From an uncultured Bacteriovoracaceae bacterium (lineage in GTDB: Bacteria; Desulfobacterota; Desulfomonilia; UBA1062): 64,000 nt of DNA. A program made the translations under genes and the position numbers. Below the pieces are notes generated by a model. The model had not been told where the DNA came from. It saw nothing but the letters and a program-made list of their open reading frames with translations, and ran no database searches. Positions 14,841-48,919 of this stretch are shown here, in pieces. Within the stretch, counting starts at the first letter, position 1. Every line of letters starts with the position of its first letter. The stretch is from NCBI GenBank assembly GCA_964388905.1, contig CAYMDG010000001.1, positions 7,686-71,685 of the forward strand. The letters are read 5' to 3'.

Positions 14841-14903
14841 GGATGGCGGGATGTAAGTGTTTCAGATCTGAAGATTATCATTATGAAATTTGCTGAGTTC
14901 ACT

Positions 14904-15995: not shown

Positions 15996-16077
15996 GAGAA
16001 GGGTTAAATCACTTGTATTGTCATCTTTCCGATGTGCAACAATGGCCTGGAGACGACCTGGATGATATCTTTAAGGC

Positions 16078-24923: not shown

Positions 24924-27104
24924 ATGAAAATAAATCTATCTCATCGAAAATCGGTCGTCGGGTGGATGCTTCCGCTTGCATCCATACTCTTCCTTGCCGT
25001 TGTGTTCATCCGTTACGCAGAGCCCGTGAAGGACGGTGATATCTGGTTCCACATGGCCTATGGCCGGTACATGCTGGAGAACCACACCCTCGTTCCCGAT
25101 CATGCCATCTACAGCTGGACCCCGGCGGTGAACAGCCAGATCTATTGCGCCTGGTTGCCGGAGATCATTCTTTATCTTCTCTATACCGCAGGCGGGGTGA
25201 GTGCATTCTTTGTTCTCAGGTATGCGTGCATCCTCGTGTTCCTGGGGTTTGCCCTGCATTTCATGAAAAGAAACAATGCATCCCTCAATCCTCTGGCCTG
25301 GTTGACCACCCTGACCGGGGTGCTGATGTGTCAAGCTGCAATGGATATAAAGCCCGAGATCTTTTCCTTTATCTTCATGACAGGAACGGTATGGGCATGG
25401 CTCATGGTGAGGTCCTCGCGGGAAAGTGGATGGAGGTATTGCTACCTTATCCCGCTGATCATGCTTCTGTGGGTGAACAGCCACGGTGGTTTCATATTCG
25501 GCCTGGTCTTTCTTGCGCTGGTTTCAGCGGGAGAAATAGTGAACTGCTCCTTCTCCCCGGAGGAAAGGCTCGATGCAAGGACGCTGCGGCATTTTTTCTT
25601 CTCGATGCTGCTGAGTTTCATCGTGATATTCATCACACCCTACGGGTGGGAATACCCGGCGCAGCTCTTTCATGACCTCCTCCTCAACAGCCAGGCCCAG
25701 GTGAGAGAATTCAGGACCGTCGGTGCGTACCAGTCGATTTTCCACCCTGAGGCAAAGGGGCATCATTTCATTGATTATCTCGTAGTCTCAGGCTCGGCTC
25801 TGGTTTTTCTGTTCTGGTCAGCCATGAAGAAGAAAAGACTGAACTGGTCGCTGATTTTTGCGAATACGGGGATGATATGGCTATACACCCAGTTCATACG
25901 GACCACCTATTTCTGGGGAGTGCTCAGTGTTTTCAGCTCGCTGGCCATCATGGGCCAGGCCGGCATAAGCCTCAGGATGAAAGAGGGGAAGATTCAGAAA
26001 TACCTGGGAATATTTTTCATCATGCTGTGCATGTTCATTTCCGGAAGAGAAGTTTATCAGTCCTTGTGCAAACCGCTTTCCGGGTTCTGGATAAACTACT
26101 ACAGTCCCATTGAGGAAGCCGAGTATATCCGCACCAGGCTGCCGGGATACCGGCTGGGCAATGATTATAACTGCGGGACATATCTGCTCTGGAAGCTGTG
26201 GCCAGAACAGAAGGTCTTCATCGATGCGCGGTATTTTCCCTATAAGAAGTGGTATCATGAGTATGCAAACTTTGTGTACGGCAAGGACCGTCGATACAAA
26301 GATGACTTCCTCGCCAGGTATGGGTGTGATGTCTGGTGTGCCACCTATGATTTTCCCCAGCTTACCTATTTTGTCAAATCCCCGGACTGGCGCCTGGTGC
26401 ATTACGGGCCTTCGGCCTGCATCTTTGTAAGGAATGGGCTGGATGTTCCCCGGGACGGGAAAGGCCTCTTTAAGTCACCCGCCAAGGTAAGAACCCACCA
26501 GGCCCTGAAGATAATCGATTTTTCAATATCTGTGGGGGATCTTGACAATGCGGTATCCCTGGCAGGGGGTCTCAAGAAAAGCCTTATCTGCCCGGGGCTC
26601 AATAAGCAGATCGCCCTGTCATGCATCAAACTCGGTGATGCCCTGAGCAGGAAAAACCGGACCGATGAGTCGATTGCGTTTTTCGAACAGGCCTTAGAGG
26701 TTTTTCCCCTACGCGAAGCAGGTGTTCATAACACCCTTGGCAGCCTGTACCGCAATAAGGGCGAACTTGACAAGGCTTTACAGGAGTACGGGAATGCCTT
26801 GCAGATTCAGCCTGATTACGTGCCGGCTCTGCATAACATGGGGGTTGTTTACTCCCAGAAGGGAGACCTTGACCGTGCCCTGACATACCTGAAGAAGCTC
26901 TCTGAGATCCATCCGGAAAATCCGGACAACTACTATAACATCTCCTGTATATATGCCAGGCAGCGGAAAACAGGCGAATCAGTAGCCTGGCTCGATAGGG
27001 CGGTTAAGAAAGGCTTTCAAAACTGGAAGCTGCTCAAGACTGATCCTGATCTTGATAATATCCGGGGATCCGGGTACTACCAGGGGCTTGTTCAGGGGAA
27101 ATAA
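24924..27104 (+). CDS. Polytopic membrane protein (GT-C/ArnT-like or O-antigen-ligase-like) with C-terminal TPR and cap.
   Basis: ~12 TM helices. Acidic first-loop motif (VKDGDIWFHMAYGRYM) and a WVNSHGGFIFG element. C-terminal TPRs end in YYNISCIYARQRKTGESVAWLDRAVKKGFQNWKLLKTDPDLDNIR. Confidence 0.55.
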   Translation: MKINLSHRKSVVGWMLPLASILFLAVVFIRYAEPVKDGDIWFHMAYGRYMLENHTLVPDHAIYSWTPAVNSQIYCAWLPEIILYLLYTAGGVSAFFVLRYACILVFLGFALHFMKRNNASLNPLAWLTTLTGVLMCQAAMDIKPEIFSFIFMTGTVWAWLMVRSSRESGWRYCYLIPLIMLLWVNSHGGFIFGLVFLALVSAGEIVNCSFSPEERLDARTLRHFFFSMLLSFIVIFITPYGWEYPAQLFHDLLLNSQAQVREFRTVGAYQSIFHPEAKGHHFIDYLVVSGSALVFLFWSAMKKKRLNWSLIFANTGMIWLYTQFIRTTYFWGVLSVFSSLAIMGQAGISLRMKEGKIQKYLGIFFIMLCMFISGREVYQSLCKPLSGFWINYYSPIEEAEYIRTRLPGYRLGNDYNCGTYLLWKLWPEQKVFIDARYFPYKKWYHEYANFVYGKDRRYKDDFLARYGCDVWCATYDFPQLTYFVKSPDWRLVHYGPSACIFVRNGLDVPRDGKGLFKSPAKVRTHQALKIIDFSISVGDLDNAVSLAGGLKKSLICPGLNKQIALSCIKLGDALSRKNRTDESIAFFEQALEVFPLREAGVHNTLGSLYRNKGELDKALQEYGNALQIQPDYVPALHNMGVVYSQKGDLDRALTYLKKLSEIHPENPDNYYNISCIYARQRKTGESVAWLDRAVKKGFQNWKLLKTDPDLDNIRGSGYYQGLVQGK

Positions 27105-27123: not shown

Positions 27124-29175
27124 ATGAAAAAGAAACCTGTCTCTCAAAAGACCATGCCCGCAACGGGTGTTGAAGAATATCCCCTCCTGGGCAGTGCACT
27201 TTTATTGGCGGGAATTTCTCTCCCCTACTTATATCTCATATATCATCTGCCGGTTTCCCAGATTGCAGGCTTTCTGACCGGACTTGTTCTGTTCCTGTAT
27301 CTCCCCGGATCATTCGTCCTGGAACTCTTGGAGTGGAAAGACAATCCTGTTTCCCTGGCGGTCCTATCTCTGCTTGCCGGTATGGCCATTTCTCCGATTC
27401 TTTATTACCTTGCGGCAGTAGCAGGCTTGCAGGGCGCCTTTATTCTGCCGATTGCATGCATTTCGCTGTATGTGCTCTATAAAAAGCTGCCTGCGTTGAA
27501 CTACAAAGAGAGCTTGAGGCTGCCCCGCGGATGGTGGAAGGCTGCAGCCGTACTCTTTGCTGTCCTTATGGTCCTTCACCTCAGTCATTTCACCGACCTG
27601 AATCTTGCCAGGGGCGGCGGATATCAGCTCAGGACGACAAACTATACCGAGACCATCTATCATCTCGGGATAATCAATGCGGCCGGGTATGCCGTACCAC
27701 CTTCCTTCCCCTATGCGAGCGGGTACTCATTCTCTGAATATCACATAGATATGCACCTCCTTGCCGTCATCTTCTGCAAGTACCTGGGAATAGATACGAC
27801 CATAATGACGTTCTATTTCCTTCCACTTCTCCTGATGGGCATGATCATAGCAGTGCCGGCGGTTTTCTTTTATGAACTTCATGGAGATATAAATCTTAGC
27901 CTCTTTTTTGGCCTGCTCATGCTTGGGGCGGATCTCTCCTTTGTCCCCGCCCTGTGGGAGGGATGGAATGAAACATACCCCTGGACCCTGACCTTCTGCA
28001 CAACGATATGGAGTCTGTTCACCCTCAACGGGATCATGGCGGCTATTCCTCTCTTCTTTGGCTCCGCATTGGCGTTCCAACGTTTTTTTACCTCTCGGAA
28101 CATAAGGCATCTTATTGTTTTCTCTTTGCTGACGATTGCCTCCTTCCGGGTGAAAAGTTCCATGGGCCTCCAGGTGATAGGGGTGGCGTTCCCGGCTCTG
28201 GCATTCATCGAATGGAAGTATCGTACCGGGATATGGAAGAAGGCCTTGCCGGTTCTGGTGCTTACGGCTGTGCTCATCTGTGCAGATATCTTTCTGAAGT
28301 CGTCCTCGTCCGGCAGCAGCTTTGTCGTGAAATGGGATTTGTTCAACGGACTGATCCAGTCCGCAGGCTACCTGGCTATGGAGCAGTGGCGTAACGCAGC
28401 CCTGGCCCCATTGGAGCACCCTCTCACCTTGCTGCTGGCAGTGGCTTTTTATTTCTTCGGCTTCATGGGTGTCCGTATTGTTTTCCTTAAGTATGGCTAC
28501 AAAGTGCTGAAGCCCGGGGACCGTTCAGCGCCGGTCGTTCCTTTTCTTATTTTATTTATCATCGGAGGAATAGTTCTCTCGGAGATGATCTACCTGGGCG
28601 GGAAGTATGACAGGATAAATAACGCCGTGTGGTTCAGGGTTCAATCCATTCTTGCAGCCACCTATTTTGTGGCGGCTTTCATTTCATCTTTGCATGTCAG
28701 AAGGCATAAGGTTGCAGCTGTGTTCGTTGTTGTATTGCTGACGTTTCCTACCACGATCGATTTCCTCAGATTGAGGTATGACGATACCTATACGGATATT
28801 ACGAAAAACCAGCTCCTTGCCGTTGATTATATTAACAAAACAGTGCCTGGGGATGCTACCATATTGGAATACCCGAACTGGAACGGACCGTCGCTGTCGT
28901 CCAATCTGGCAGGGAGGAGTACAGTTCTCGCCTATTTCAGGACTTTCGTCGGGGCAAGGGTGGAGCCGAAGACCATTGCAGAACGCAACAGTGACATCAA
29001 GGCCTTCTTTATGGTCGATCAGGAGGATAGCCGCAAGATGATTTTAAGGAAATACGGTGTAGGATATCTCGTGCTGCCGGCACAGAAGGCAGGAGTTATA
29101 TCCCATTATCCCTGGGCAGCATTATCATACAGTAATCCGGAAGTGGTGATCTACAAGGTCAGCCTACCCCGGTAA
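27124..29175 (+). CDS. Large polytopic membrane protein of unknown function (possibly a Wzy/GT-C-like glycan-processing enzyme) with a C-terminal soluble domain and no TPR cap.
   Basis: ~16 hydrophobic segments over 683 aa. Tightly linked (19 bp) downstream of 24924..27104. Confidence 0.45.
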   Translation: MKKKPVSQKTMPATGVEEYPLLGSALLLAGISLPYLYLIYHLPVSQIAGFLTGLVLFLYLPGSFVLELLEWKDNPVSLAVLSLLAGMAISPILYYLAAVAGLQGAFILPIACISLYVLYKKLPALNYKESLRLPRGWWKAAAVLFAVLMVLHLSHFTDLNLARGGGYQLRTTNYTETIYHLGIINAAGYAVPPSFPYASGYSFSEYHIDMHLLAVIFCKYLGIDTTIMTFYFLPLLLMGMIIAVPAVFFYELHGDINLSLFFGLLMLGADLSFVPALWEGWNETYPWTLTFCTTIWSLFTLNGIMAAIPLFFGSALAFQRFFTSRNIRHLIVFSLLTIASFRVKSSMGLQVIGVAFPALAFIEWKYRTGIWKKALPVLVLTAVLICADIFLKSSSSGSSFVVKWDLFNGLIQSAGYLAMEQWRNAALAPLEHPLTLLLAVAFYFFGFMGVRIVFLKYGYKVLKPGDRSAPVVPFLILFIIGGIVLSEMIYLGGKYDRINNAVWFRVQSILAATYFVAAFISSLHVRRHKVAAVFVVVLLTFPTTIDFLRLRYDDTYTDITKNQLLAVDYINKTVPGDATILEYPNWNGPSLSSNLAGRSTVLAYFRTFVGARVEPKTIAERNSDIKAFFMVDQEDSRKMILRKYGVGYLVLPAQKAGVISHYPWAALSYSNPEVVIYKVSLPR

Positions 29176-29413: not shown

Positions 29414-30418
29414 TTAGTGAGCCCAGATGTCTATCCAGCTTCCGCTGCCGATATCAAGGTTAAACCCTGAGATGAAGATATCCCCGAGCGTTCCGGCATT
29501 GGGACCGGCCAGAGTGTGAAGGTCGGAAAGCCTCACATTTGCCGTGATCGGACCCGCTACATTTACATTGAACAGGTTCGGGAAGGAGATGTGGCATATC
29601 GTCAGAGAGGGTGCCCCATGGTTGTAGACCCCTGCCAGCTGGTTGGCAACGTCGATTGCAACGGTGCCGGTGATGGAGATCGGGCCGCCGATTGAAAGGT
29701 TCTGGAGACCGATGTAACCCCGCGTGCTGTTCGTCCCGCCTGCCATCCAGACAACCCCGCCGGTTCCCGTGTTTCCACCGGGCAGGCCGTCAACGTCACC
29801 CCATGCGATGTAGCTCAAATTGAACTGGTCAATGATGATGTTCAAGTCCATCGACACGCCGCTGCCGCCATGGGAGTAGATATCAACATAGCTGTCGGGA
29901 TTAAAGTATATACCCATTGCGCCGATGACAACTGTCCCGAGTAGCTGGTTGATGGTATAGGTCGGTCCCATGGCAACCCCGATAGCTATTTGATTCATGG
30001 TGATCTGAAGGGCGCCGAGCCCGAAGCGCACGAAGGTGCGGCCGGCTGCATTGGAGCTGCCAACATCGATGGTGATGGGCTTCAGGTAAGCAGTTCCGTA
30101 AGAGCCTGAATAGACCGTGCCGTAACCGACGCCGTAATGATCGGTTTCACGGGCCTTGATCCTGAGGTTGGTGATGTCGAACCATCTGACTCCGACATAT
30201 CCTCTGCCGTTGATGCCGGCGGTGGGCCAATATGCATTTACGCCGTCTGCGTCACCCCAGGCCAAGGTTCCGATGCCGATGTTCATCGTCAGGTCGGCAT
30301 TGATGCTCACGCCGGACTGGCCGGTGACATTCGACAGGTCGGAATCAGTGACCGGGGTCATGGCCCAGACGGAAAGGGGTAATAATAGTATTACCAGAAT
30401 AGTAACAACTCTCTTCAT
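29414..30418 (-). CDS. Secreted beta-rich repeat protein, full-length paralog of the window-start gene.
   Basis: Start re-set to the MKRVVTILVILLLPLSVWA signal peptide (RBS AAGGAG upstream). Mature N-terminus MTPVTDSDLSNVTGQSG. Internal duplicated AWGD.DG segments. C-terminus GSWIDIWAH identical to gene 1. Confidence 0.6.
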   Translation of the reverse strand: MKRVVTILVILLLPLSVWAMTPVTDSDLSNVTGQSGVSINADLTMNIGIGTLAWGDADGVNAYWPTAGINGRGYVGVRWFDITNLRIKARETDHYGVGYGTVYSGSYGTAYLKPITIDVGSSNAAGRTFVRFGLGALQITMNQIAIGVAMGPTYTINQLLGTVVIGAMGIYFNPDSYVDIYSHGGSGVSMDLNIIIDQFNLSYIAWGDVDGLPGGNTGTGGVVWMAGGTNSTRGYIGLQNLSIGGPISITGTVAIDVANQLAGVYNHGAPSLTICHISFPNLFNVNVAGPITANVRLSDLHTLAGPNAGTLGDIFISGFNLDIGSGSWIDIWAH

Positions 30419-30616
30419 AATGGTGCTCCTTTTGCCTAGATGCTCGTTAACGTATTGTTTATTTTGTTTAAATGTTGGTGAGTTCACCCGGTGGTACACT
30501 GCCTTCGGAAAGATAATCCTTTGAACAACCGGGAATCTCGCCCAGTCCAACGATAACAAGGATATAATATTAATGCAATATAAGTACCAAAAATACAAAA
30601 AAAAGAAAAACAGCAA

Positions 30617-30879
30617 AATAAGTAACTTATGATAATTTAATTAAATTAAAAATACAGAGTGATGAAAACAAGTAATGATTAATGGAAAATAAATTCCGCT
30701 CATGTGAGAAAACGATTGGAGCCTGACTCATTCGGAAGGCCAGAGGTATTTGGACGGTTAAAGCAGATGTTAAGGAAAAAAACGACCACATTCCTTAAGA
30801 CCTGATCAGTGATGACACCTGGGAGGATACAATTTCTCCAGTTGTGAAGAAGCGAATTTTCATTTAAAGCTGTACTATT
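30617..30879. promoter_or_regulatory. AT-rich divergent intergenic region, likely carrying promoters for 29414..30418 (-) and 30880..32301 (+).
   Basis: A 260-bp non-coding stretch with long A/T runs (aaaaaagaaaaacagcaaaataagtaacttatgataatttaattaaattaaaaataca) between divergently oriented genes. Confidence 0.35.
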
Positions 30880-32301
30880 ATGCTTTTTAATTACTGGTTC
30901 ATCTTTGTTGTGATTCTGGCCCTTCCGGTCTACTACTCCCTTTCGCGGATATGGCAGAACGCATTTCTGATTGCTGCGAGCTATGCCTTCTACAGCTACT
31001 GGGACTACCGGTTCCTCTCCCTCATCGTCATATCGACGGTGTTCAATTTCTATTTCGGCTCGAAGATCCATGCATCCCGGAACCCGGCGACGAAAAGGAC
31101 ATGGTTACTCATCAGCCTGGTTCTCAACCTGGGCATCCTGGGATTCTTCAAATACTACAACTTCTTCATAACCTCATTTACTGCCGCGTTCCAGCCCTTT
31201 GGATTCGTGCCCCAGGCAAGCATATTGAAAATCATATTACCCCTGGGGATCAGTTTCTTTACGTTCAAGATCATGGGCTACCTCATCGATGTTTACCGGG
31301 ACAGGCAGACGCCCGCTGACATTGTTTCCTTCGCTTTGTTCGTGGGCTATTTCCCCGAGATATCGGCAGGGCCCATAGGAAGGGCCGGCACCTTTCTGCC
31401 CCAGATAGACAAGAAACGGACCTTTGCACAGGAACGGATATTTGCCGGCCTGCAGCTCATCCTGCTCGGCTATTTCAAGAAGAAGGTGATAGCGGACGCG
31501 GTGGCGCCCTATGTGGACCAGTTGTTCACGGAGACAGGGCAATTCATGAGCCTCGATCTCCTGTGCGGGATGTACCTTTACACCATCCAGATCTATGCGG
31601 ACTTTTCGGGCTACACGGACTTAGTAAGGGGCATCAGCAAGCTGCTGGGCATAGAGATCATGGAGAATTTCAAGCAGCCATACCTCTCGCGGAACATCGC
31701 CGAATTCTGGAGGAGATGGCACATCTCCCTGTCCACCTGGCTCAGGGACTACCTCTACATACCCCTGGGAGGCAGCCGCAGGGGCAATGCCCGGACATAC
31801 GCGAACATCATGGTCACCATGCTCCTGTGCGGCCTCTGGCACGGGGCCTCATGGGTGTTCGTGGCCTGGGGAGGCTTGCACGGGGTTTACATCGTGGTCA
31901 ACCGGTTTTTCAGGGACGGCGTGAAGAAGACTGCCTCAGCCAGGGAAGAAGGGCAGGGCATTATAAGGTCCGCAGTGTCGGTTTTCATAACGTTCCATGT
32001 GGTCGCCCTGGCCTGGATATTTTTCCGGGCACCTGATTTCAGCACGGCATGGACATACATCTCTTCCCTGGCGGATATGTCGCGTTTCGGGTATGTGTCG
32101 TCCTCGCTCATACTGATTACGCTCTTTTATGTGGTCCTGACCCTGGTAATTGATCTCCCCATGTACAGATCGAACAGGGAACTGCTCGTAACACATGAAA
32201 CCCCATGGCCCTGGCGGGCAGTGGTGTATGCCCTGCTCATCCTGTGCATCTCATTCCTGGGCGAAGCGTATGTCCAGCCGTTCATCTACTTCCAGTTCTG
32301 A
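30880..32301 (+). CDS. MBOAT-family membrane O-acyltransferase (AlgI/DltB-like).
   Basis: Canonical MBOAT core WHISLSTWLRDYLYIPLGGSRRG...LLCGLWHGASWVFVAWGGLHG, ~470 aa, multi-TM. Confidence 0.85.
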   Translation: MLFNYWFIFVVILALPVYYSLSRIWQNAFLIAASYAFYSYWDYRFLSLIVISTVFNFYFGSKIHASRNPATKRTWLLISLVLNLGILGFFKYYNFFITSFTAAFQPFGFVPQASILKIILPLGISFFTFKIMGYLIDVYRDRQTPADIVSFALFVGYFPEISAGPIGRAGTFLPQIDKKRTFAQERIFAGLQLILLGYFKKKVIADAVAPYVDQLFTETGQFMSLDLLCGMYLYTIQIYADFSGYTDLVRGISKLLGIEIMENFKQPYLSRNIAEFWRRWHISLSTWLRDYLYIPLGGSRRGNARTYANIMVTMLLCGLWHGASWVFVAWGGLHGVYIVVNRFFRDGVKKTASAREEGQGIIRSAVSVFITFHVVALAWIFFRAPDFSTAWTYISSLADMSRFGYVSSSLILITLFYVVLTLVIDLPMYRSNRELLVTHETPWPWRAVVYALLILCISFLGEAYVQPFIYFQF

Positions 32302-32314
32302 TACGGGCAAACAC

Positions 32315-33814
32315 ATGAGCCAATCCTTCAAAGTCATGATCTTAACTCTTTTCATCCTGGCCTGTGCCGGTGGCGCCCTTTCCTTGAGCCGGGATGTATT
32401 GGAGAAGATATCTCCAAGATCTTTTATGACACCTGTCTTCTCATATCTTGAAACAAAGAAACCGAATGATTTACAGGCTGTTTTCCTGGGGAGTTCTCGT
32501 ATTCAATCCTGTATCAAAAGGGATCTCTTTGCCACGTTGACAGGTATTGAGCAGTCGAAGATCCTTCTCCTCGAAGTTGATGGTTCCGGCACCTGGGAAG
32601 AATTCTCTATCTGCAGGAGATTTCCAGGTTTGCTTGACTCTGCACCTCTGGTCATTATCGAGGTAGAACCTTGGATGTTCAACAATAATTATTTCTCCCA
32701 GGGAGGCACTCTCTTCATTCAACCGGGCTTTTACCAATGGGCTACTATTCAGGATAGACTTGAGTTCCCGGACCTGAAGATCAGGGCTCTCTCAACCGTA
32801 GATTATATCTGGCCCATTTCCGAGCGACGTTCTCTTCAGGGATGGAGCAGCGTCATTGATGGATTCATTCATAAAAGATATCCAGAACCGATGAACCCGG
32901 ACGATATCCCCAAATACCACTACGATGCAGCTGCATACAGGAAGGTTGCGGAAGAACCGAAAGGCACGGCCCAGTTTCAAGCACACGCCGCTCTGAATAA
33001 TTTCGAATTTTCCAGTTATAAAGCGGAATATCTTGAGCGCCTTGTGCGTCTGGCAGAAAAAAAATCAAAGAAGATAGTACTCCTGCAGCCTCCATTGCAA
33101 AATGAGTATATCGACATAATGTTTGATAACCCGAAGTATCTCGAAGGGCACATACGGGTAATTAAGTTTTTGCACAGCCTTGAGAACAAGAATGTCAGCA
33201 CCATAATATGGGAGAGGCCTGAAGACTGCGGCCTGAACGACGCCGTGTTCATTGATTATGGGCATTTCAACAGGGAAGGGGCGTATATGTTTACGCAAAG
33301 GCTGTACAATGAGCTGAACAGCCGGGGCCTTACCGAAACCCATGACCCTGTTGGAACGTCATCCGATACCGAACTTAAGGGGAATATCCTGAAGCTTGAG
33401 AAATTTGTACAGGTGCATCCTGGGGATTACGATGCGCTCCACCAACTGGGGAACCTGTATTACCGGATAAACATTGACAAGGCCCTTGATTACTATCAGG
33501 CGGCATTGCTGATACGTCCGGAATCGATGAAGACCATGGAAAAAATAGTCATGTTGTACTCAAAAAAAGGTGATTATGAAATATCGCTTGCTGTTCTTAA
33601 CCGTATGCAAGCATTGCACCCGGAAAACGCGAACACCTACTACAATATCGCATGTATAAAGGCAAAGCAGAACAGGCACAGTGAGTCTGTCGAATGGTTG
33701 AAGAAGGCAGTATCGAAAGGATTTCATGACCGAAGTCTTTTAGTGACTGATAAAGATCTGGATAATATTAAAGGGGATCCGGGGTATATTGGCCTGTTGA
33801 AGAGCTCCAATTGA
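32315..33814 (+). CDS. Membrane-anchored SGNH-like (AlgJ/AlgX/DltD-type) partner protein fused to the C-terminal TPR cap.
   Basis: Start re-set to the ATG 11 nt after the MBOAT stop (MSQSFKVMILTLFILACAG); the track's longer N-extension is an out-of-frame read of the MBOAT tail. Motifs AVFLGSSR (GDS-like) and FIDYGHFN (DxxH). Cap YYNIACIKAKQNRHSESVEWLKKAVSKGF. Confidence 0.55.
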   Translation: MSQSFKVMILTLFILACAGGALSLSRDVLEKISPRSFMTPVFSYLETKKPNDLQAVFLGSSRIQSCIKRDLFATLTGIEQSKILLLEVDGSGTWEEFSICRRFPGLLDSAPLVIIEVEPWMFNNNYFSQGGTLFIQPGFYQWATIQDRLEFPDLKIRALSTVDYIWPISERRSLQGWSSVIDGFIHKRYPEPMNPDDIPKYHYDAAAYRKVAEEPKGTAQFQAHAALNNFEFSSYKAEYLERLVRLAEKKSKKIVLLQPPLQNEYIDIMFDNPKYLEGHIRVIKFLHSLENKNVSTIIWERPEDCGLNDAVFIDYGHFNREGAYMFTQRLYNELNSRGLTETHDPVGTSSDTELKGNILKLEKFVQVHPGDYDALHQLGNLYYRINIDKALDYYQAALLIRPESMKTMEKIVMLYSKKGDYEISLAVLNRMQALHPENANTYYNIACIKAKQNRHSESVEWLKKAVSKGFHDRSLLVTDKDLDNIKGDPGYIGLLKSSN

Positions 33815-33880
33815 ATCTTCGGATGGATCACGCTTTATGTGTCAAACAATACATTCCCAGTAAGGATATCAAGCGAGATC

Positions 33881-33970
33881 ATGAAAAATATCAAGTATGC
33901 CGTGCTCTTCCTGTGCATCTCGTTCCTGGGTGAAACGTATGTCAAGCCATTCATCTACTTACAGTTCTGA
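33881..33970 (+). pseudogene. Duplicated remnant of the MBOAT gene 3' end, marking a tandem-duplication junction.
   Basis: tatgccgtgctcttcctgtgcatctcgttcctgggtgaaacgtatgtcaagccattcatctacttacagttctga differs at only ~9 positions from the last 75 nt of 30880..32301. Encodes ..YAVLFLCISFLGETYVKPFIYLQF*. Confidence 0.65.
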
Positions 33971-33974
33971 CGCC

Positions 33975-35384
33975 ATGAAGAATATGCCCGAGTCTTTAAA
34001 AGTTGCTCTGGTCACCTGTGCGATACTAATTATTATATGTATTCCGCTGTCCATCAATCGGGAGCCGTTGGAGAAGGTCACACAGCGGTCGAACCTGACA
34101 ATGATCTTTTCCTTTCTCGACCGTTATAAACCTCATGATCTGAAAGCGATATTCTTTGGAAGTTCCCGTTTTGTTTACTGCATTAAAAGCGATATTTTTG
34201 CTAGGCAGATGGGGATAGATCAGTCGAAAGTGATCAATCTCGCCACCGAGGGCGGAGGAGCCTGGGAAGAGTTGCTTGTCTGCAGAAAATACCCCGGATT
34301 GATCAACTCGTCTTCCCTGGTCGTCATCGAGGTGGAGCCATGGATGTTCAACATGAATCCGATTCACCCTATCTATAAAAGACCTCATCCTTTCGAGTCT
34401 CATTTTTATATGTGGGCAACTCTTCAGGAACGGTGGGAGTACCCGGACTTGAAAACAAGGGTTCTCCTTCTGGCAGATTACGTATGGCCCTTTTCCGAGC
34501 GCCGTTCTCTCATGGACTGGGGTTCTGCTCTTCGTTTAATCATCAAAGCGCCCTATGCAGATCCGCACCTAAGTCTCCCGGTATATCAGTTCGATCCCCA
34601 AGCTTATCAGGCAATGGCGAACGACCCTAACTTTACAGCAGGTCAGATTACCCGCTATCAACTGAATGATTTCAAATTTGCCCCATACAAGGCCGAGTAT
34701 TTCAAGCGCCTGATCAAACTTGCTGAGAAGAACGCAAAGAAGATAGTCCTCCTGCAGCCACCGGTTCGCAAGGAATATATCGAAGCAATCTATAATAACC
34801 CCAAGTATTTCAATACCTATATACAGTATGTGCAGTTCATCCACGGCCTGGAAAATGAAAAGATCAGTTCTATAATCTGGCAGACACCTGAAGACTGCGG
34901 ATTGAACGAGTCCATATTCATTGATTATGGCCACTTCAACGCACAGGGAGCACATGTCTTTACGCAAAGATTATCTCAGGAACTGAAAGCTTCAGGGTTT
35001 GCAGGAACAGATACAGCCGGCGGTACAGGGCCGGCAAGTAATGGACAAGATGATATACGCAGGTTCGTAGAGGCACTGAAAACCAACCCGGACTCAATAA
35101 CTGTCATGCAGTCGTTGGCGATAGCCTACTCGAATAATGGAGATTATGAAAACGCACTCAGGGTGCTTAATAAAATGAGAGAAATCCACCCGAATAAAGC
35201 GGACATTTACTATAATATCTCGTGCATAAAGGCAAAGCAGGGCAGTTTGAAAGAGTCTGTTGAATGGTTGAGGCTGGCTCTTTCAAAAGGTTTCAAAAAC
35301 CGCAGCCTCCTGGTGACGGATAAAGACCTGGACGCCATTAAAGGTACTCAGGGGTTCAGGGAGATAGTGCAGAAAATGAATTAG
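33975..35384 (+). CDS. Second SGNH-like partner paralog with TPR cap (tandem duplicate of 32315..33814).
   Basis: Start set at MKNMPESLKVALVTCAILIIICIP, downstream of the MBOAT-tail remnant. It has the same FFGSSR, FIDYGHFN and cap motifs (YYNISCIKAKQGSLKESVEWLRLALSKGF). Confidence 0.55.
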   Translation: MKNMPESLKVALVTCAILIIICIPLSINREPLEKVTQRSNLTMIFSFLDRYKPHDLKAIFFGSSRFVYCIKSDIFARQMGIDQSKVINLATEGGGAWEELLVCRKYPGLINSSSLVVIEVEPWMFNMNPIHPIYKRPHPFESHFYMWATLQERWEYPDLKTRVLLLADYVWPFSERRSLMDWGSALRLIIKAPYADPHLSLPVYQFDPQAYQAMANDPNFTAGQITRYQLNDFKFAPYKAEYFKRLIKLAEKNAKKIVLLQPPVRKEYIEAIYNNPKYFNTYIQYVQFIHGLENEKISSIIWQTPEDCGLNESIFIDYGHFNAQGAHVFTQRLSQELKASGFAGTDTAGGTGPASNGQDDIRRFVEALKTNPDSITVMQSLAIAYSNNGDYENALRVLNKMREIHPNKADIYYNISCIKAKQGSLKESVEWLRLALSKGFKNRSLLVTDKDLDAIKGTQGFREIVQKMN

Positions 35385-36049
35385 CGGGTCTTTATGTCCA
35401 CCCAGCTGTTCGGACGGATGGTAGAGTTCGTATCATTGGTGTAATAAGTGCGAAGCAGGGTGTTCCCGTCAGGTTTGACATGGACGATGACAGGGGAATT
35501 TGAACTGGTCGAGAGGCCGGTCGGATAGACAAAGCTGCGCGTCGGTTTATCACTGATAGTGTATTGGTTGTGATCGTCAGCAGAGGAGCCAATTGTATAG
35601 GCGTCTTTCAGGGTGATCGGATCGATCAGGAAGTTTTTGATGCTTTTATCATCATTTCTATTACCTGAAGACACATAGAAGAATGAGAACCGGTTAAAGG
35701 CTTCGGATTCTTCCGCTGCCTCAACGGCACTATCAGGGAGCTGAAGGCGGGCTTTGCTCCAACGTTTGATGGCGAACAGCAGGAACCTGCTCATGTCGCC
35801 ATCATCCCAATCCATGGTTTCATTGTTGATATCTGTTACCTGCACGGGATTGATGCTCAGGCTGAGAGGGTTGTTGACATTGCCAAGGTCTAAATCCGTC
35901 AGGGGCGTCATGGCCCACACTGACAGAGGGAACAGCAGCCAGATCCAGAAAATAATAATCTTCTTCAACAACACGTCTGTCCTCATCATGGGATATTGCA
36001 TACAATACACACTTTTATGTGTTGAAAATATAAGCAATATAAATGCCAT
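35381..36049 (-). CDS. Short secreted protein of the same family (shares the N-terminal LSVWAMTPLTDLDLGNV motif).
   Basis: Signal peptide IIIFWIWLLFPLSVWA followed by MTPLTDLDLGNVNNP. C-terminus ..SWVDIKTR resembles SWIDIWAH. The exact start Met is ambiguous (MQYPMM). Confidence 0.5.
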   Translation of the reverse strand: MAFILLIFSTHKSVYCMQYPMMRTDVLLKKIIIFWIWLLFPLSVWAMTPLTDLDLGNVNNPLSLSINPVQVTDINNETMDWDDGDMSRFLLFAIKRWSKARLQLPDSAVEAAEESEAFNRFSFFYVSSGNRNDDKSIKNFLIDPITLKDAYTIGSSADDHNQYTISDKPTRSFVYPTGLSTSSNSPVIVHVKPDGNTLLRTYYTNDTNSTIRPNSWVDIKTR

Positions 36050-36216
36050 GATACATCATGCATAAATTCAGCTGGTTGAATTCCCGGGAGATGCATCAGT
36101 TCAATAAAAGGGTAAATAATATTACTCTTAAATGGAAATATATTGCTCCAGCAGTCAATGTTTGCCCTGCACAACGTCGTAACAGGGAACAGGGTCATGA
36201 CCTATGAAACGGAACC

Positions 36217-37314
36217 TTATTCGTCCTTTTCCGAGACGATTTCCCGGGAATGCAAGCCTGCCTGCATGAGGTTCACACCTGTCACCCATGCAGAAAAGAT
36301 CCCGATCACGATGAGCGGTGCGATGGCCAGGAAATGGTTCGTGAGCGTCAGCCCTGCGGCCTCTGTCTTGGGAACCCCGAAGATCATCAGGCCATAGATG
36401 CCGCCAACCTCCCAGATGCCCCAGTAGCCGGGCACCGAGGGCAGCATGATGAAAAAGCACATGATGATGATGGATGCCGAAGCCTGGAGAAAGGTGATTT
36501 TTACGCCCTGGCAGCCGAAGGTGAATATATAAAATGCATAAAAGGTCATCAACCACACCACCACGGAAAGACCGAGGCAGGCGAGAATCTTGGATGGTTT
36601 TTTCAGCACCTCAAAACCCAGGGCAATATTGTCCAGGACAGCCTGCGAACGCGAGTGCAGCCTCTCGGACATGCGCTGCCGGAAATGGGACGACGTGAAA
36701 AAGAGCAGTTTCGGCAGCCAGGAGATGAAGCGGCCTAATGCACGCCTGGTAACGGGCAGCATGAACATGAAGATAAGGGTCAACAGCACCATGCCGGCAA
36801 CCATGGTCTTTGACCGTATGCCCAGAAGCGTTGCCTGGTTTATCTGGTGGCCATTGAAGCTGAGGCTCAAGGATGGATCGATCTCGATGCTGCCCATGAT
36901 GAGGACAAAGAGGCAGAGCAGGGTTGCGATATCGAAGATCCTCTCTACGGCGACGGTTGCAAGCACTTTTGAAAAATCCACCTTGTCCCTCTTGTAGAGG
37001 ATAGCCGGCCTTGCAAGCTCGCCCAGCCGGCCAGGAAGAATGCAATTGATGGTGAACCCTATGACAAGGGGATGGAAGGCATGCCAGAAACCGATCTTCT
37101 TGATTGGTTTCAAGATGATCTTCCATCTCAGCGCCCTGACCAGGTAGGTGGATTGTGCGATAAGCGCAGAGGGTATGATCCACCAGAAGTTGATGGTTTT
37201 TATATAATCCAGGAGCTCTGCAATGGGGACATTCCTGAAGGAGATATACACAGCCGCACCGGAGAAGACGATGCCGATCATGAGTGAGAGGAGGATCTTT
37301 CTATTCTGCTGCAT
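36217..37314 (-). CDS. UPF0104 / lysylphosphatidylglycerol-synthase-TM-like 'flippase-like' membrane protein.
   Basis: 8 TM helices and the family motif ILPGRLGELARP, ~365 aa. It is commonly co-encoded with lipid-linked glycosyltransferases. Confidence 0.65.
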   Translation of the reverse strand: MQQNRKILLSLMIGIVFSGAAVYISFRNVPIAELLDYIKTINFWWIIPSALIAQSTYLVRALRWKIILKPIKKIGFWHAFHPLVIGFTINCILPGRLGELARPAILYKRDKVDFSKVLATVAVERIFDIATLLCLFVLIMGSIEIDPSLSLSFNGHQINQATLLGIRSKTMVAGMVLLTLIFMFMLPVTRRALGRFISWLPKLLFFTSSHFRQRMSERLHSRSQAVLDNIALGFEVLKKPSKILACLGLSVVVWLMTFYAFYIFTFGCQGVKITFLQASASIIIMCFFIMLPSVPGYWGIWEVGGIYGLMIFGVPKTEAAGLTLTNHFLAIAPLIVIGIFSAWVTGVNLMQAGLHSREIVSEKDE

Positions 37315-37542: not shown

Positions 37543-38661
37543 ATGAAGAAGGCCTTGATCACCGGCGTTACCGGCCAGGATGGTGCATATCTTTCTGAGT
37601 TTCTCCTGGGCAAGGGTTACATGGTGCACGGCATCAAGAGGAGGTCATCGAGTTTCAATACCTACCGCGTTGACCACCTCTATCAGGACCCGCACGACAA
37701 GGATGTGCGGTTTCTCATGCACTATGGCGACCTGACGGATTCCACGAATATAATCCGTATTATCCAGGATGTTGAACCCGATGAGATCTACAACCTGGGG
37801 GCCCAGAGCCATGTCCAGGTATCTTTCGAGACCCCGGAATACACTGCCCAGACGGATGCCTTGGGGACCTTGCGGGTGCTGGAGGCATTACGTATCCTGG
37901 GAATGGAGAAGAAGGTGCGGTTCTATCAGGCCTCAACCAGCGAGCTGTTCGGAAAAGTCCAAAAGATACCTCAGGATGAAGAGACGCCGTTTTACCCCAG
38001 GAGCCCTTATGCAGTGGCAAAGCTGTACGCCTTCTGGATAGCCGTGAATTACCGAGAGGCCTATGGCATGTATGCCTGCAACGGAATCCTCTTCAACCAC
38101 GAATCTCCCATCCGGGGCGAGACCTTTGTCACCAGAAAGGTGACCCGGGCGGCCAGCAGGATTGCACTGGGTTTGCAGACAAAGCTCTATGTGGGTAACC
38201 TGGGAGCGTTACGCGACTGGGGGCATGCAAAGGACTTTGTAAAGGCCCAGTGGCTCATGCTCCAGCAGGACACACCGCAGGACTTTGTCATAGCTACCGG
38301 CAGGCAGTATTCGGTGCGGCAGCTCTGTGATGAGGCCTTCTCAAGCGTTGGCATCGAGATCGACTGGCAGGGCACAGGTGTGGATGAAAAGGGTGTGGCC
38401 AGGTCGGTAAAGCCTCTTGAAGGGGAGACGAATGTCCGGCCGGGTGATGTGATCGTGCAGGTCGATCCGCATTATTTCAGGCCTACCGAGGTGGAGACAC
38501 TTCTGGGAGACCCAACCAAAGCGAAGAAGATCCTTGGTTGGGAACCGCAGATTACCTTCCAGGAGATGATCGCCGAGATGGTGGAGCACGACATACAGGA
38601 GACCAGGATGGATGTGCTCTGCAAGAACAGCGGCTTCACCGTCATGAACCGCCATGAATAG
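37543..38661 (+). CDS. gmd: GDP-mannose 4,6-dehydratase.
   Basis: Near-colinear identity to E. coli Gmd motifs ([55 protein letters not shown]). GGGAGGG RBS. Confidence 0.9.
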
Positions 38662-39604
38662 GGACTCGAAGATTTTCATCGCCGGCCACACCGGCCTTGT
38701 GGGCTCTGCCATGAAAAGGAGGCTCGAGAATGAGGGCTATGGGAACCTCATCACCCGTTCCTGGCCTGACATGGACCTTACCAGCCAAAAGGATGTGGAT
38801 GAATTCTTTTCCCGGGAAAGGCCCGAATGCGTTTTTCTCTGTGCTGCCAGGGTGGGCGGGATCCTTGCCAACAGCACCTATCCGGCCGAGTTCATCTATC
38901 AGAATATCATGATTGCTACCAATGTCATCCATGCCAGCTATAAGCACGGGGTGAAAAAGCTCCTGAACCTCGGATCGTCCTGCATCTATCCAAAGCTTGC
39001 ACCGCAGCCTCTCAAAGAAGAATACCTTCTCACCGGCGAACTGGAACCCACCAATGAGCCCTATGCCATAGCCAAGATAACGGCCATCAAGATGTGCCGG
39101 TATTACAATCAGCAGTATGGGACGAATTATATCTCGGTTATGCCCACGAACCTCTTCGGACCCAATGACAATTTCAACCTTGAGACATCACATGTGCTGC
39201 CTGCTCTCATCAGGCGGTTTCACGAGGCAAAGGAGCAGGGGAAGGCCGCTGTAACCCTCTGGGGCACCGGCAGTCCCAGGCGTGAATTCCTCTATGTGGA
39301 CGACCTTGCGGGCGCCTGCGTGTATCTCATGAGCAGCTGTGATGCAGTAGCCATAGGCGAGTTCGTGAATATCGGGTCAGGCAGGGACATGACCATCAGC
39401 GAGCTCGCTGAACTCGTCAGCGGAATAATCGGATACCGCGGAGACATCCGATGGGATTCCACCAAGCCCGACGGCACACCCCAGAAGCTTCTGGATGTCA
39501 GCCGGATCGGCTCCCTTGGATGGAATGCAGGCACCAGCCTGAAAGAGGGCATTCAGAAGACTTATGCCTGGTATTTACATACAATCAACCGCACACAGGG
39601 ATGA
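38654..39604 (+). CDS. fcl: GDP-L-fucose synthase (GDP-4-keto-6-deoxymannose 3,5-epimerase/4-reductase).
   Basis: [13 protein letters not shown]..., [55 protein letters not shown]. 8-bp overlap with gmd. Confidence 0.9.
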
Positions 39605-48015: not shown

Positions 48016-48036
48016 AGAATAGAAGGTCGTGAAGGC

Positions 48037-48918: not shown

Positions 48919-48919
48919 T

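What the first reader, a model, noticed from the sequence alone, without database searches (positions are those of the whole stretch)
30880..35384. MBOAT + two tandem TPR-capped SGNH-like partners, with a duplication scar carrying the MBOAT 3' end
The AlgI/DltB-type MBOAT is followed by two paralogous membrane-anchored proteins with GSSR and DYGH (SGNH-like DxxH) motifs, comparable to AlgJ/AlgX/DltD/PatB partners, each ending in the TPR cap. A 75-nt near-identical copy of the MBOAT gene's last codons plus its stop (33881..33970) precedes the second partner gene. This shows that the duplication unit spanned the MBOAT/partner junction. It also explains the spurious out-of-frame N-terminal extensions (MPCSSCAS..) on both ORF-track entries. 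Two O-acyltransferase partners may target two different glycans or proteins.
Basis: seen in the sequence. Interest (0 to 1): 0.6.

Follow-up and report, generated by a model that had tools for sequence, protein, structure and literature searches.

The report
Relic of a lost second acyltransferase gene
A sugar-acylating membrane enzyme is followed by two helper-enzyme genes, and the short "copy" before the second helper is what remains of a deleted second copy of that enzyme, probably kept because it carries the helper gene's translation start signals.

Summary
Window 33896..33970 copies the last 24 codons plus stop of the MBOAT gene (32227..32301) at 67/75 nt. The MBOAT is followed by two paralogous proteins (about 50% identical) with a DltD/DUF1574-like domain and a C-terminal TPR cap.

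The copy is not the edge of a small duplication. It is the relic of a whole second MBOAT gene. Just upstream (33859..33895) lies a decayed piece of MBOAT codons ~249-265. A syntenic metagenome contig has an intact 473-aa MBOAT in that position, with the same 4-nt gap to partner 2.

In 11 intact related MBOAT genes, one fragment and both window copies, an out-of-frame ATG sits inside the MBOAT tail (32 nt before the stop, 26 nt in one gene). A GGNGNA Shine-Dalgarno-like motif precedes it. So the MBOAT 3' end holds the partner's ribosome site, start codon and first ten codons. That explains why this piece survived.

The relic is still an intact 29-codon ORF (MKNIKYAVLFLCISFLGETYVKPFIYLQF*). It keeps the FXYXXF "acyl-shuttle" motif known from DltX and PatA. 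It could be a DltX-like microprotein, but it has six replacements at otherwise conserved positions. It is seen in no other organism, and simulation shows chance survival is plausible (12-23%).

Partner 2 most likely now uses the remaining MBOAT.

The parts
30880..32301 (+). MBOAT-A: a 473-aa AlgI/PatA-type membrane-bound O-acyltransferase with a fused C-terminal acyl-shuttle tail
   Evidence: Pfam MBOAT E=2.9e-23. TIGR04091 DltB scores 191.6 bits, below the 375 cutoff. H281, H321 and F468/Y470/F471/F473 are invariant in 47 homologues. AlphaFold pLDDT is 87.8; the last TM helix is 443-460 and a short helix spans 469-472.
32281..32298 (+). Codons for FIYFQF, the FXYXXF acyl-shuttle hexapeptide at the extreme C-terminus of MBOAT-A (Tyr470)
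   Evidence: Sequence. The motif is defined in PMC12148441. F468, Y470, F471 and F473 are invariant in 47 homologues; I469 and Q472 are nearly invariant.
32259..32272 (+). Translation-initiation region of partner 1 inside the MBOAT-A tail: SD-like GGGCGA, then an out-of-frame ATG at 32270
   Evidence: The NAT-GTN codon pair and the upstream GGNGNA are conserved in all relatives.
32270..33814 (+). Partner 1 (P1): N-terminal TM anchor, DltD/DUF1574-like SGNH-type domain (GSSR at 32489..32500, DYGH at 33254..33265) and TPR cap (about 33392..33811). It is 514 aa from the conserved overlapping ATG. The protein collection holds it as P0008, 499 aa, starting at 32315.
33859..33895 (+). Decayed fragment of the lost MBOAT-B, corresponding to codons ~249-265 (VRGISKLLGIEIMENFK), with small deletions. 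It supplies the ATG at 33881, which is the former Met261 codon.
   Evidence: Local alignments against MBOAT-A: 18/21 nt with 0/500 shuffles reaching the score; the gapped extension scores 34 against 18.3 +/- 3.2, with 1/500 shuffles reaching it.
33896..33970 (+). 3' end of the lost MBOAT-B: codons 450-473 plus stop, 67/75 nt identical to 32227..32301, with no indels
   Evidence: An intact MBOAT (P0037) sits at this position in a syntenic JGI contig.
33881..33970 (+). Intact 29-codon relic ORF, MKNIKYAVLFLCISFLGETYVKPFIYLQF*: part of the last TM helix plus the FIYLQF shuttle motif. Translation and function are unproven.
   Evidence: The peptide is not in the protein collection. A neutral simulation keeps ORF and motif in 12-23% of trials.
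33928..33941 (+). Translation-initiation region of partner 2 inside the relic: SD-like GGGTGA, a 5-nt spacer, then ATG at 33939
33939..35384 (+). Partner 2 (P2): TM anchor, DltD/DUF1574-like domain (GSSR at 34158..34169, DYGH at 34923..34934) and TPR cap (about 35043..35381). It is 481 aa from the conserved overlapping ATG. The protein collection holds it as P0001, 469 aa, starting at 33975.
   Evidence: Its rate of change is not accelerated.

Best explanation
The locus began as two tandem MBOAT-plus-transferase modules: MBOAT-A/P1 and MBOAT-B/P2. It lies inside a glycan-biosynthesis island.

In this lineage MBOAT-B was deleted. All that remains is about 112 nt (33859..33970): a decayed piece of codons ~249-265 joined in frame to the last 24 codons and the stop.

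The 3' piece survived because, in this family, the partner gene starts inside the MBOAT tail. A Shine-Dalgarno-like GGNGNA (the Gly-Glu/Ala/Val codons) and an out-of-frame ATG 32 nt before the MBOAT stop form the partner's initiation region. The last 32 nt of the MBOAT are also the partner's first codons. A deletion that removed them would silence P2.

Inferred mechanism, by analogy with PatA/PatB and DltB/DltX/DltD:
1. MBOAT-A uses a cytoplasmic acyl donor and His321 to acylate Tyr470 of its periplasmic C-terminal FIYFQF motif.
2. The acyl-Tyr is handed to the Ser of GSSR in the periplasmic DltD-like domain of P1.
3. P2 now also draws on MBOAT-A, because the tails of MBOAT-A and MBOAT-B in the closest relatives are identical.
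4. Each partner esterifies its own acceptor. The TPR caps probably dock the enzymes to an acceptor or to export or glycosylation machinery.

Shown here: the homology and architecture of the relic, the intact MBOAT in the syntenic relative, the conserved overlapping start, the fold and motifs of the partners, and the shuttle motif.

Inferred: the acyl flow, that P2 is served by MBOAT-A, and the acceptors.
For: Evidence that the relic derives from a full MBOAT:
- The tail copy is 67/75 nt identical.
- An adjacent in-frame internal MBOAT fragment is present (0/500 shuffles reach the score; 1/500).
- JGI contig 5890 reads P1-like (P0006), then an intact 473-aa MBOAT (P0037), then P2-like (P0002), then LPG_synthase_TM. 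Its 13-nt and 4-nt gene gaps match the window's.
- On contig 3944, the closest relative (MBOAT 89%, P1 83% identical), another gene of at least 109 aa starts after P1.
- Two complete modules also occur within one locus in L011.

Evidence for the overlapping start:
- In 11 intact MBOAT genes, the L005 fragment and the relic, the codon before the Val or Ala is always NAT, although the residue varies (Tyr, Asn, His).
- NAY codons in these genes end in T only 57% of the time.
- GGAG/GGGGA/GGTGA-type motifs lie 5-10 nt upstream.
- Several relatives have no other start.

Evidence that P2 is still functional:
- It keeps all 14 family-invariant residues.
- Its mean identity to outgroups is 51.6%, against 52.1-54.0% for orthologues.

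Evidence on the tail and the relic:
- The tails of P0036 and P0037 are identical and differ from the window MBOAT-A tail at one residue.
- The relic has 6 replacements in 31 codons, at positions that vary little or not at all in intact genes, including the invariant F264 and F471. This indicates relaxed constraint.

Evidence on the partner fold:
- pLDDT 89.5.
- DltD 6pfx at E=2.9e-4.
- DUF1574 is hit by 9 of 32 homologues, best E=1.5e-9. DUF1574 belongs to the SGNH clan (PMC9487903).

The mechanistic precedent comes from PMC12148441.
Against: - No DNA was available for the two closest relatives (JGI sample 3300075153). The relic could therefore not be aligned to an intact MBOAT-B, and the deletion could not be dated.
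- The 109-aa ORF after P1 on contig 3944 was not seen as sequence.
- The retained tail (75 nt) is longer than the roughly 50 nt needed for an SD plus overlap. The relic also keeps a start codon and reading frame, which the initiation-region argument alone does not require.
- Both window partners have a second in-frame ATG downstream (32315, 33975). That is the start of the called proteins P0008 and P0001, so the start used in vivo is unproven.
- Nothing here shows that MBOAT-A actually serves P2.
- MBOAT-B of the relative is closer to the MBOAT-A copies (84-87%) than to the MBOAT of the P2-clade single module (72%). This is unexplained.
Confidence: 0.7

Rival explanations
1. The relic ORF is expressed as a 29-aa DltX-like microprotein: a short TM helix plus a periplasmic C-terminal FIYLQF. 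MBOAT-A charges its Tyr in trans, and it delivers the acyl group specifically to P2. This would be a free-standing acyl shuttle made by fission of an MBOAT.
For: - The ORF is intact and has its own ATG (the former Met261 codon). The frame is kept across a 184-codon deletion.
- F, Y and F of FXYXXF are retained at the extreme C-terminus. All four tail replacements are conservative (L>V, I>F, Q>K, F>L).
- The new N-terminus MKNIK adds Lys residues on the presumed cytoplasmic side.
- An AAGGA lies 14 nt upstream, and many genes here lack a strong SD.
- The ORF sits directly in front of a DltD-like gene, as dltX does within dlt operons.
- The motif and mechanism are documented for DltX and PatA.
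Against: - Apart from an identical copy (L009), it occurs in none of the 12 related loci, and the peptide is not in the protein collection.
- It has 6 replacements at otherwise strongly conserved positions, including F471, which is invariant in 47 MBOATs.
- The N:S pattern (6 replacements against at most 4 silent changes) cannot be told from neutrality.
- A neutral simulation keeps ORF plus motif in 12-23% of trials.
- Only 11 residues of the 18-residue parental helix (443-460) remain, so the hydrophobic span is marginal.
- MBOAT-A keeps its own fused tail. That tail presumably occupies the site where DltX docks on DltB.
Confidence: 0.2
2. The relic ORF is translated, but its peptide is irrelevant. 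It survives as a short leader ORF whose translation keeps the P2 initiation region accessible, preserving the translational coupling that MBOAT-B translation used to provide.
For: - The P2 SD and ATG lie inside the ORF, which ends 32 nt after the P2 start, exactly as in intact modules.
- The start codon and frame are kept while the peptide sequence drifts.
- No terminator-like site lies between P1 and P2.
Against: - No stable RNA structure sequesters the P2 start. The MFE z-scores are +1.19 and +0.96, so these regions fold no better than shuffled sequence. The need for coupling is therefore not evident.
- An intact ORF is also plausible by chance, in 34-46% of simulated trials.
Confidence: 0.25
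3. One reading: a tandem duplication whose unit ran from the last ~25 MBOAT codons through the partner gene. Under this model there never was a second MBOAT.
For: - The tail copy ends exactly with the stop and is followed by the paralogous partner.
- The homology offset of 1669 nt is constant from the tail into the partner genes.
Against: - An internal MBOAT fragment (codons ~249-265) lies next to the tail copy.
- A syntenic relative has a full MBOAT there.
- P1 and P2 lie in separate clades that each contain single-module loci.
- The tail is 89% identical, while the partners are about 70% identical at the nucleotide level and 50% at the protein level. A single duplication event fits this poorly.
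Confidence: 0.08
4. Assembly artefact: the assembler collapsed or chimerised two similar MBOAT copies.
For: The two MBOAT copies of relatives are 84-87% identical. Similarity of that kind can confuse assemblers.
Against: - An independent Logan assembly is 100% identical across 32339..36089.
- The relic has its own substitutions and small deletions rather than a clean chimeric joint.
Confidence: 0.02

Closest known systems
PatA/PatB peptidoglycan O-acetyltransferase (Gram-negative MBOAT-SGNH pair)
   Same: The MBOAT has a fused extreme C-terminal FXYXXF motif (here FIYFQF; FIYANF in N. gonorrhoeae PatA) carried on extra C-terminal TM helices. An adjacent gene encodes a periplasmic Ser/His transferase. 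The mechanism shown for PatA is auto-acetylation of the motif Tyr followed by transfer to the partner (PMC12148441).
   Different: - The partner here is not PatB-like. It is DltD/DUF1574-like and carries a TPR cap.
- There are two partners for one MBOAT.
- The acceptor is unknown, and the genomic context is a glycan-biosynthesis island rather than a peptidoglycan locus.
DltB/DltX/DltD (teichoic acid D-alanylation)
   Same: - DltD is the best non-TPR match of the partner model among solved structures (6pfx).
- DltX is a TM microprotein ending in FXYXXF (FLYFGF). The relic ORF resembles it in outline.
   Different: - The MBOAT scores below the DltB equivalog cutoff (191.6 against 375) and has its own fused shuttle tail.
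- No Pfam DltD hit was found.
- The relic is 29 aa with a truncated helix and is not conserved.
- Published work states that non-Dlt MBOAT/SGNH pathways lack a DltX-like microprotein.
AlgI/AlgJ/AlgF/AlgX alginate O-acetylation (from my own knowledge of the system, not tested here)
   Same: One MBOAT (AlgI) works with two paralogous SGNH-like periplasmic proteins (AlgJ and AlgX). This is the closest precedent for one MBOAT serving two partners.
   Different: - The partners here are not AlgX/AlgJ-family (no ALGX hit).
- No AlgF equivalent was recognised.
- Here the one-MBOAT state arose secondarily, by loss of a second MBOAT.
DUF1574 (PF07611), an uncharacterised family of the SGNH clan
   Same: It gives weak to moderate matches to the partner catalytic domain: P2 E=0.0013, and 9 of 32 homologues with best E=1.5e-9. 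The family has no known function or structure (PMC9487903).
   Different: The window proteins score below the gathering cutoff (18.6 and 12.8 bits against 29.1) and carry a TPR cap.

Membership tests
Bacterial MBOAT with fused acyl-shuttle tail (PatA/AlgI type) | Pfam MBOAT domain above the gathering score | tested here: met
   PF03062 scores 83.1 bits against a cutoff of 27.
Bacterial MBOAT with fused acyl-shuttle tail (PatA/AlgI type) | Invariant catalytic His | tested here: met
   H321 (WHG) and H281 are invariant in 47 homologues. Assigning H321 as the catalytic His is by analogy.
Bacterial MBOAT with fused acyl-shuttle tail (PatA/AlgI type) | FXYXXF hexapeptide at the extreme C-terminus, on extra TM helices absent from DltB | tested here: met
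   The protein ends in FIYFQF*. F468, Y470, F471 and F473 are invariant. The DltB model aligns only to residues 27-382, and predicted helices 408-431 and 443-460 lie beyond it.
Bacterial MBOAT with fused acyl-shuttle tail (PatA/AlgI type) | Auto-acylation of the motif Tyr from acyl-CoA | not testable with these tools
   This needs biochemistry, as was done for C. jejuni PatA.
DltB (TIGR04091 equivalog) | Score at or above the curated cutoff | tested here: not met
   191.6 bits against a cutoff of 375.
DltD family | Sequence match to Pfam or PDB DltD | tested here: not met
   No DltD family appears among the Pfam hits at E<=0.1. The profile search against PDB sequences finds no DltD.
DltD family | DltD-like fold with an N-terminal TM anchor | tested here: met
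   The AlphaFold model has pLDDT 89.5 with an N-terminal helix at 6-27. Foldseek finds 6pfx DltD at E=2.9e-4 over 369 columns, with a modest TM-score of 0.35-0.41.
SGNH clan / DUF1574 | Block I nucleophile Ser and block V DxxH | tested here: met
   G62-S63-S64-R65 and D317-Y318-G319-H320 are invariant in 32 homologues.
SGNH clan / DUF1574 | PF07611 at or above the gathering score | tested here: not met
   P2 scores 18.6 bits and P1 12.8 bits against a cutoff of 29.1. Nine of 32 relatives match at E<=0.01. These are distant relatives, not members by Pfam's rule.
DltX-type acyl-shuttle microprotein (relic ORF 33881..33970) | FXYXXF at the extreme C-terminus | tested here: met
   The ORF ends in FIYLQF*.
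DltX-type acyl-shuttle microprotein (relic ORF 33881..33970) | A full transmembrane helix | tested here: inconclusive
   Only residues 450-460 of the parental helix 443-460 are retained. The hydrophobic run is about 11 residues after MKNIK.
DltX-type acyl-shuttle microprotein (relic ORF 33881..33970) | Conservation as a separate gene in related operons | tested here: not met
   It is absent from the 12 related loci. Its only other occurrence is an identical copy of the same sequence. The peptide is not in the protein collection.
DltX-type acyl-shuttle microprotein (relic ORF 33881..33970) | A partner MBOAT that lacks its own shuttle tail | tested here: not met
   MBOAT-A carries FIYFQF itself.
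DltX-type acyl-shuttle microprotein (relic ORF 33881..33970) | Expression and acyl-Tyr formation | not testable with these tools
   This needs Ribo-seq, mass spectrometry or genetics.
TPR-domain proteins | TPR repeats above the curated cutoffs | tested here: met
   TPR_12, TPR_1, TPR_17, TPR_8, TPR_19 and NF047558 TPR_END_plus (60.6 and 59 bits against a cutoff of 32).

The most novel reading that the evidence does not exclude
The 29-codon relic is a working free-standing acyl-shuttle microprotein. It would be the first DltX-like shuttle outside the Dlt pathway, caught at the moment of its birth by decay of an MBOAT gene. It would dedicate acyl transfer from the surviving MBOAT to the second TPR-capped transferase. 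If so, DltX-type microproteins can arise by fission of MBOAT C-termini, and one MBOAT core can charge both a fused and a detached shuttle.
Probability: 0.2. Interest if true: 0.75.

Novelty: new variant of a known kind. Interest (0 to 1): 0.42.

Why it matters
MBOAT-SGNH pairs acylate bacterial envelope polymers, and this affects antibiotic resistance, immune evasion and biofilm properties. The acyl-Tyr shuttle mechanism was worked out only recently. This locus adds three points.

1. A conserved gene overlap places the partner's ribosome site and start codon inside the codons just upstream of the shuttle hexapeptide, and the partner's first codons overlap that hexapeptide. This constrains the evolution of both genes. 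It also means many database start sites for these partners are likely wrong.

2. The locus is a natural experiment in which one of two MBOATs was lost while both transferases were kept. This implies that one MBOAT tail can feed two DltD-like enzymes.

3. The intact relic ORF is a candidate route to DltX-like microproteins.

The locus also gives the uncharacterised DUF1574-like, TPR-capped transferases a concrete working model.

Tried and rejected
- **RNA element at the junctions.** No Rfam hit in 30000..36500. Folding of both junctions is no better than shuffles (z = +1.19 and +0.96). Rejected.
- **Promoter or terminator between P1 and P2.** No terminator-like site between P1 and P2, and overall counts match shuffles.
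- **Search for other loci with the micro-ORF.**
  - The genome and metagenome scans gave six loci. Five are single modules with cap-less partners; L003 holds a partner-like ORF with no adjacent MBOAT tail.
  - Contig look-ups gave single modules (L007, L008, L010, L012) or two full modules (L011).
  - The two most relevant JGI contigs have no DNA available.
- **Searching the 29-aa peptide.** I ran no further search on the 51-aa open frame, because MBOAT tails would swamp the list.
- **Truncated MBOAT entries as possible further relics.** P0058 lies near a contig end. P0090 is a split gene on a contig with other split genes, probably through frameshift errors. Not informative.
- **Gene conversion as the reason for 89% tail identity.** Not needed. 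The tail is nearly invariant across the family, and the adjacent non-tail fragment shows similar identity in its aligned positions.
- **Stop-codon read-through of P1 into the relic (same frame).** Considered and dropped. It would place the shuttle motif on the wrong side of the membrane.

Full report
**1. What is in the sequence**

The region holds three large co-oriented ORFs.

- The first, 30880..32301, is a 473-aa MBOAT. Pfam MBOAT gives E=2.9e-23. The NCBIfam DltB equivalog scores 191.6 bits, well below its 375 cutoff.
- It ends ...VQPFIYFQF*.
- The next two ORFs encode paralogues that are 50% identical.
- Each paralogue has an N-terminal hydrophobic anchor, a domain of about 300 aa with GSSR and DYGH, and a C-terminal TPR block ending in the NCBIfam TPR_END_plus domain.

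33896..33970 equals 32227..32301 at 67 of 75 positions with no gaps. This covers exactly the last 24 MBOAT codons plus TGA. Identity falls to background immediately upstream.

An independent Logan assembly of run SRR13723397 is 100% identical over 32339..36089. The arrangement is therefore not a quirk of one assembly.

**2. The copy is the relic of a whole second MBOAT**

Three results point the same way.

First, the 21 nt just upstream of the copy match MBOAT codons 259-265 (GAGATCATGGAGAATTTCAAG, EIMENFK).
- The window sequence is 33875..33895, GAGATCATGAAAAATATCAAG. The match is 18/21, in frame, and 0 of 500 shuffles reach the score.
- With gaps, the homology extends to 33859, against codons ~249-265. 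It scores 34 against 18.3 +/- 3.2, and 1 of 500 shuffles reaches it.
- A duplication that only clipped the MBOAT 3' end would not carry an internal MBOAT fragment.

Second, a 5890-nt JGI metagenome contig carries the orthologues in a two-MBOAT layout.
- Its order is: a cut 31-aa gene end; a 13-nt gap; a P1-like gene (P0006, 499 aa); an intact 473-aa MBOAT (P0037); a 4-nt gap; a P2-like gene (P0002, 63% identical to P2); and LPG_synthase_TM on the opposite strand.
- The 13-nt and 4-nt gaps are the ones seen in the window after MBOAT-A and after the relic.
- A second contig from the same sample (3944 nt) holds the closest relatives: MBOAT P0036 at 89% and P1-like P0007 at 83%. After P1 it has another gene of at least 109 aa running off the contig.
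- DNA for these two contigs could not be retrieved.

Third, a neighbour-joining tree of 32 partner homologues puts P1 and P2 in different clades. Each clade also contains loci with a single MBOAT-partner module: L007 for the P2 clade, L008 and L010 beside the P1 clade. The two modules are old.

Two complete modules in one locus also occur in L011.

The relic therefore consists of a short decayed middle piece and the tail of MBOAT-B. They are joined in frame after loss of codons 266-449 and of everything before about codon 249.

**3. Why the tail piece was kept**

I aligned the MBOAT 3' ends of 11 intact related genes, one fragment and both window copies.
- The codon pair ten codons before the stop is always NAT-GTN (NAT-GCA in the second module of L011).
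- The first residue varies among Tyr, Asn and His, yet its third base is always T. NAY codons in these same genes end in T only 57% of the time.
- The result is an out-of-frame ATG 32 nt (26 nt in L011b) before the MBOAT stop. It lies in the frame of the partner gene.
- Five to ten nucleotides upstream, the Gly-Glu/Ala/Val codons spell GGAG, GGGGA, GGGAG or GGTGA, which are Shine-Dalgarno-like.
- Several relatives (L004, L005, L006, L007) have no other plausible start before the partner's TM segment.

So in this family the partner's ribosome site, start codon and first ten codons lie inside the MBOAT tail.

In the window the conserved starts are 32270 for P1 and 33939 for P2. The called proteins P0008 and P0001 in the collection start at the later ATGs 32315 and 33975, which are not conserved. 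The far extensions (MPCSSCAS...) are open frame only.

This gives a simple reason for the relic. Any deletion of MBOAT-B that reached into the last ~50 nt would have destroyed P2 expression.

P2 itself looks functional. It keeps all 14 residues that are invariant in the family. It is no more diverged from outgroups than its orthologues: mean identity 51.6% against 52.1-54.0%.

**4. What the proteins are and how the system most likely works**

MBOAT-A carries the features of the PatA/AlgI type.
- His281 and His321 are invariant, as are F468, Y470, F471 and F473 (47 homologues).
- The AlphaFold model (pLDDT 87.8) has two TM helices beyond the DltB-like core, with the last at 443-460. A loop and the short terminal motif follow.
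- FIYFQF fits the FXYXXF "acyl shuttle". Published work shows that PatA auto-acetylates the motif Tyr and that PatB uses the acetylated hexapeptide as donor. In the Dlt pathway the same motif sits on the microprotein DltX (PMC12148441; DltX motif FLYFGF, PMC11035591).

The partners are DltD-like.
- The P2 model is confident (pLDDT 89.5).
- Apart from TPR proteins, its best solved match is DltD of E. faecium (6pfx, E=2.9e-4, 369 columns, TM-score 0.35-0.41). An SGNH-type acylhydrolase (4ppy) ranks lower.
- By sequence the partners only approach DUF1574. They score below Pfam's cutoff, but 9 of 32 relatives match, with best E=1.5e-9.
- DUF1574 is an SGNH-clan family with no known function or structure (PMC9487903).

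The inferred path is as follows.
1. A cytoplasmic acyl donor enters MBOAT-A.
2. The acyl group is transferred to Tyr470 on the periplasmic tail.
3. It passes to the Ser of GSSR in P1 or P2.
4. It ends on an acceptor.

The tails of the MBOAT-A and MBOAT-B copies of relatives are identical over the last 24 residues. P2 could therefore accept from MBOAT-A without any change, which would have made MBOAT-B dispensable.

The acceptors are unknown. The surroundings are a glycan-biosynthesis island:
- a Wzx-type flippase;
- a GT56-type fucosyltransferase;
- GDP-mannose dehydratase and an epimerase;
- GT2 enzymes, methyltransferases, a GNAT and a DegT aminotransferase;
- an LPG_synthase_TM protein;
- nine large TPR-bearing proteins, one of which matches the PMT_2 (GT-C) family;
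- two DUF6160-type secreted proteins.

**5. Is the relic more than a relic?**

The relic is still a clean 29-codon ORF, MKNIKYAVLFLCISFLGETYVKPFIYLQF*. Its ATG is the old Met261 codon. Two Lys residues precede the hydrophobic run, and FXYXXF sits at the very end.

This is what a minimal DltX-like microprotein would look like. The evidence is weak.
- The ORF occurs in no other organism sampled, and the peptide is not in the protein collection.
- It carries six amino-acid replacements in 31 codons at positions that vary little or not at all in intact MBOATs. These include F264 and F471, invariant in 47 sequences.
- The ratio of replacement to silent changes cannot be told from neutrality.
- Only 11 of the 18 residues of the parental helix remain.
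- In a simulation with 7-10 random substitutions, the ORF stays intact in 34-46% of trials. ORF plus F/Y/F are kept in 12-23%.
- Part of any apparent constraint is already explained by the overlapping P2 start.

I therefore give about 0.2 to a functional shuttle peptide. I give about 0.25 to the milder idea that translation of the ORF matters only for coupling to P2. No RNA structure supports that need.

**6. Open point**

MBOAT-B of the relative (P0037) is 84-87% identical to the MBOAT-A copies. It is only 72% identical to the MBOAT that accompanies the P2-clade partner in L007. Meanwhile P1 and P2 are only about 50% identical.

Two explanations are possible. The two MBOAT copies may have been homogenised by gene conversion. 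Alternatively, module B's MBOAT was replaced by a copy of A. I could not decide between these without the DNA.

**7. Verdict**

The system is an MBOAT/DltD-like O-acyltransferase of a known mechanistic kind, in a new variant with three features:
- TPR-capped DUF1574-like partners;
- a conserved overlap that hides the partner's start in the MBOAT tail, just upstream of the shuttle codons;
- a lineage in which one of two MBOATs has been reduced to a 112-nt relic while both transferases persist.

Interest is moderate. It would be high only if the relic peptide proves functional.

Noticed in passing
window 29414..30424 (-) and 35381..36004 (-): Two secreted paralogues flank the MBOAT module. Only the first matches DUF6160 (PF19657, E=9e-12). 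They share a near-identical signal peptide and N-terminus (LLxPLSVWAMTPxTDxDLxNV; 44% identity over 59 aa). The second lies between P2 and LPG_synthase_TM, where the related loci L007 and JGI contig 5890 have no gene.
   Followed up: partly
window 7125..9374(-), 18453..20822(-), 22250..24823, 24924..27104, 41681..43897, 44000..46228, 50111..52387, 56322..58568, 59200..61410(-): Nine large proteins (about 730-860 aa) have C-terminal TPR arrays. One of them, 41681..43897, has an N-terminal PMT_2 (GT-C glycosyltransferase) match. This is an unusual expansion of TPR-bearing putative glycosyltransferases within 64 kb. It may relate to the TPR caps on the acyltransferase partners.
   Followed up: partly
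window 27124..29175 (+): A 683-aa polytopic membrane protein lies just upstream of the module. It has no Pfam hit even at E<=0.1.
   Followed up: no
window 13371..17283 (-), 37543..41061 (+), 46328..50071 (+): These are glycan-island genes: a Wzx-type flippase, a GT56 fucosyltransferase-like protein, GDP-mannose 4,6-dehydratase, an epimerase/reductase, a methyltransferase-GT2 fusion, a GT2, a GNAT, a methyltransferase and a DegT aminotransferase. L007 shares the order partner, LPG_synthase_TM, GMD, epimerase, methyltransferase-GT2.
   Followed up: partly
Proteins P0037, P0036 and P0041 (JGI contigs 5890 and 3944; L007): The MBOAT in front of the P2-like gene of the relative is closer to the MBOAT-A copies (84-87%) than to the MBOAT of the P2-clade single module (72%). 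Yet the partners are only about 50% identical across clades. This suggests gene conversion or replacement between the tandem MBOAT copies.
   Followed up: partly
L011 5605..8551 and 12954..15435: A large ENA contig (2.2 Mb) carries two complete MBOAT-partner modules about 6 kb apart in one glycan locus. One has a TPR-capped partner of 516 aa and the other a cap-less partner of 361 aa. The second module uses a 26-nt rather than a 32-nt overlapping start.
   Followed up: partly
L014 6459..7879: An MBOAT is split into ORFs of 192 and 292 aa, on a contig where an aspartyl-tRNA synthetase gene is also split. These are probably frameshift errors of the assembly rather than real pseudogenes.
   Followed up: no
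window 30566..30700: An A-rich stretch with short degenerate direct repeats (families D5 and D6) lies in the divergent intergenic region between the DUF6160 gene and the MBOAT. It may be a promoter region.
   Followed up: no
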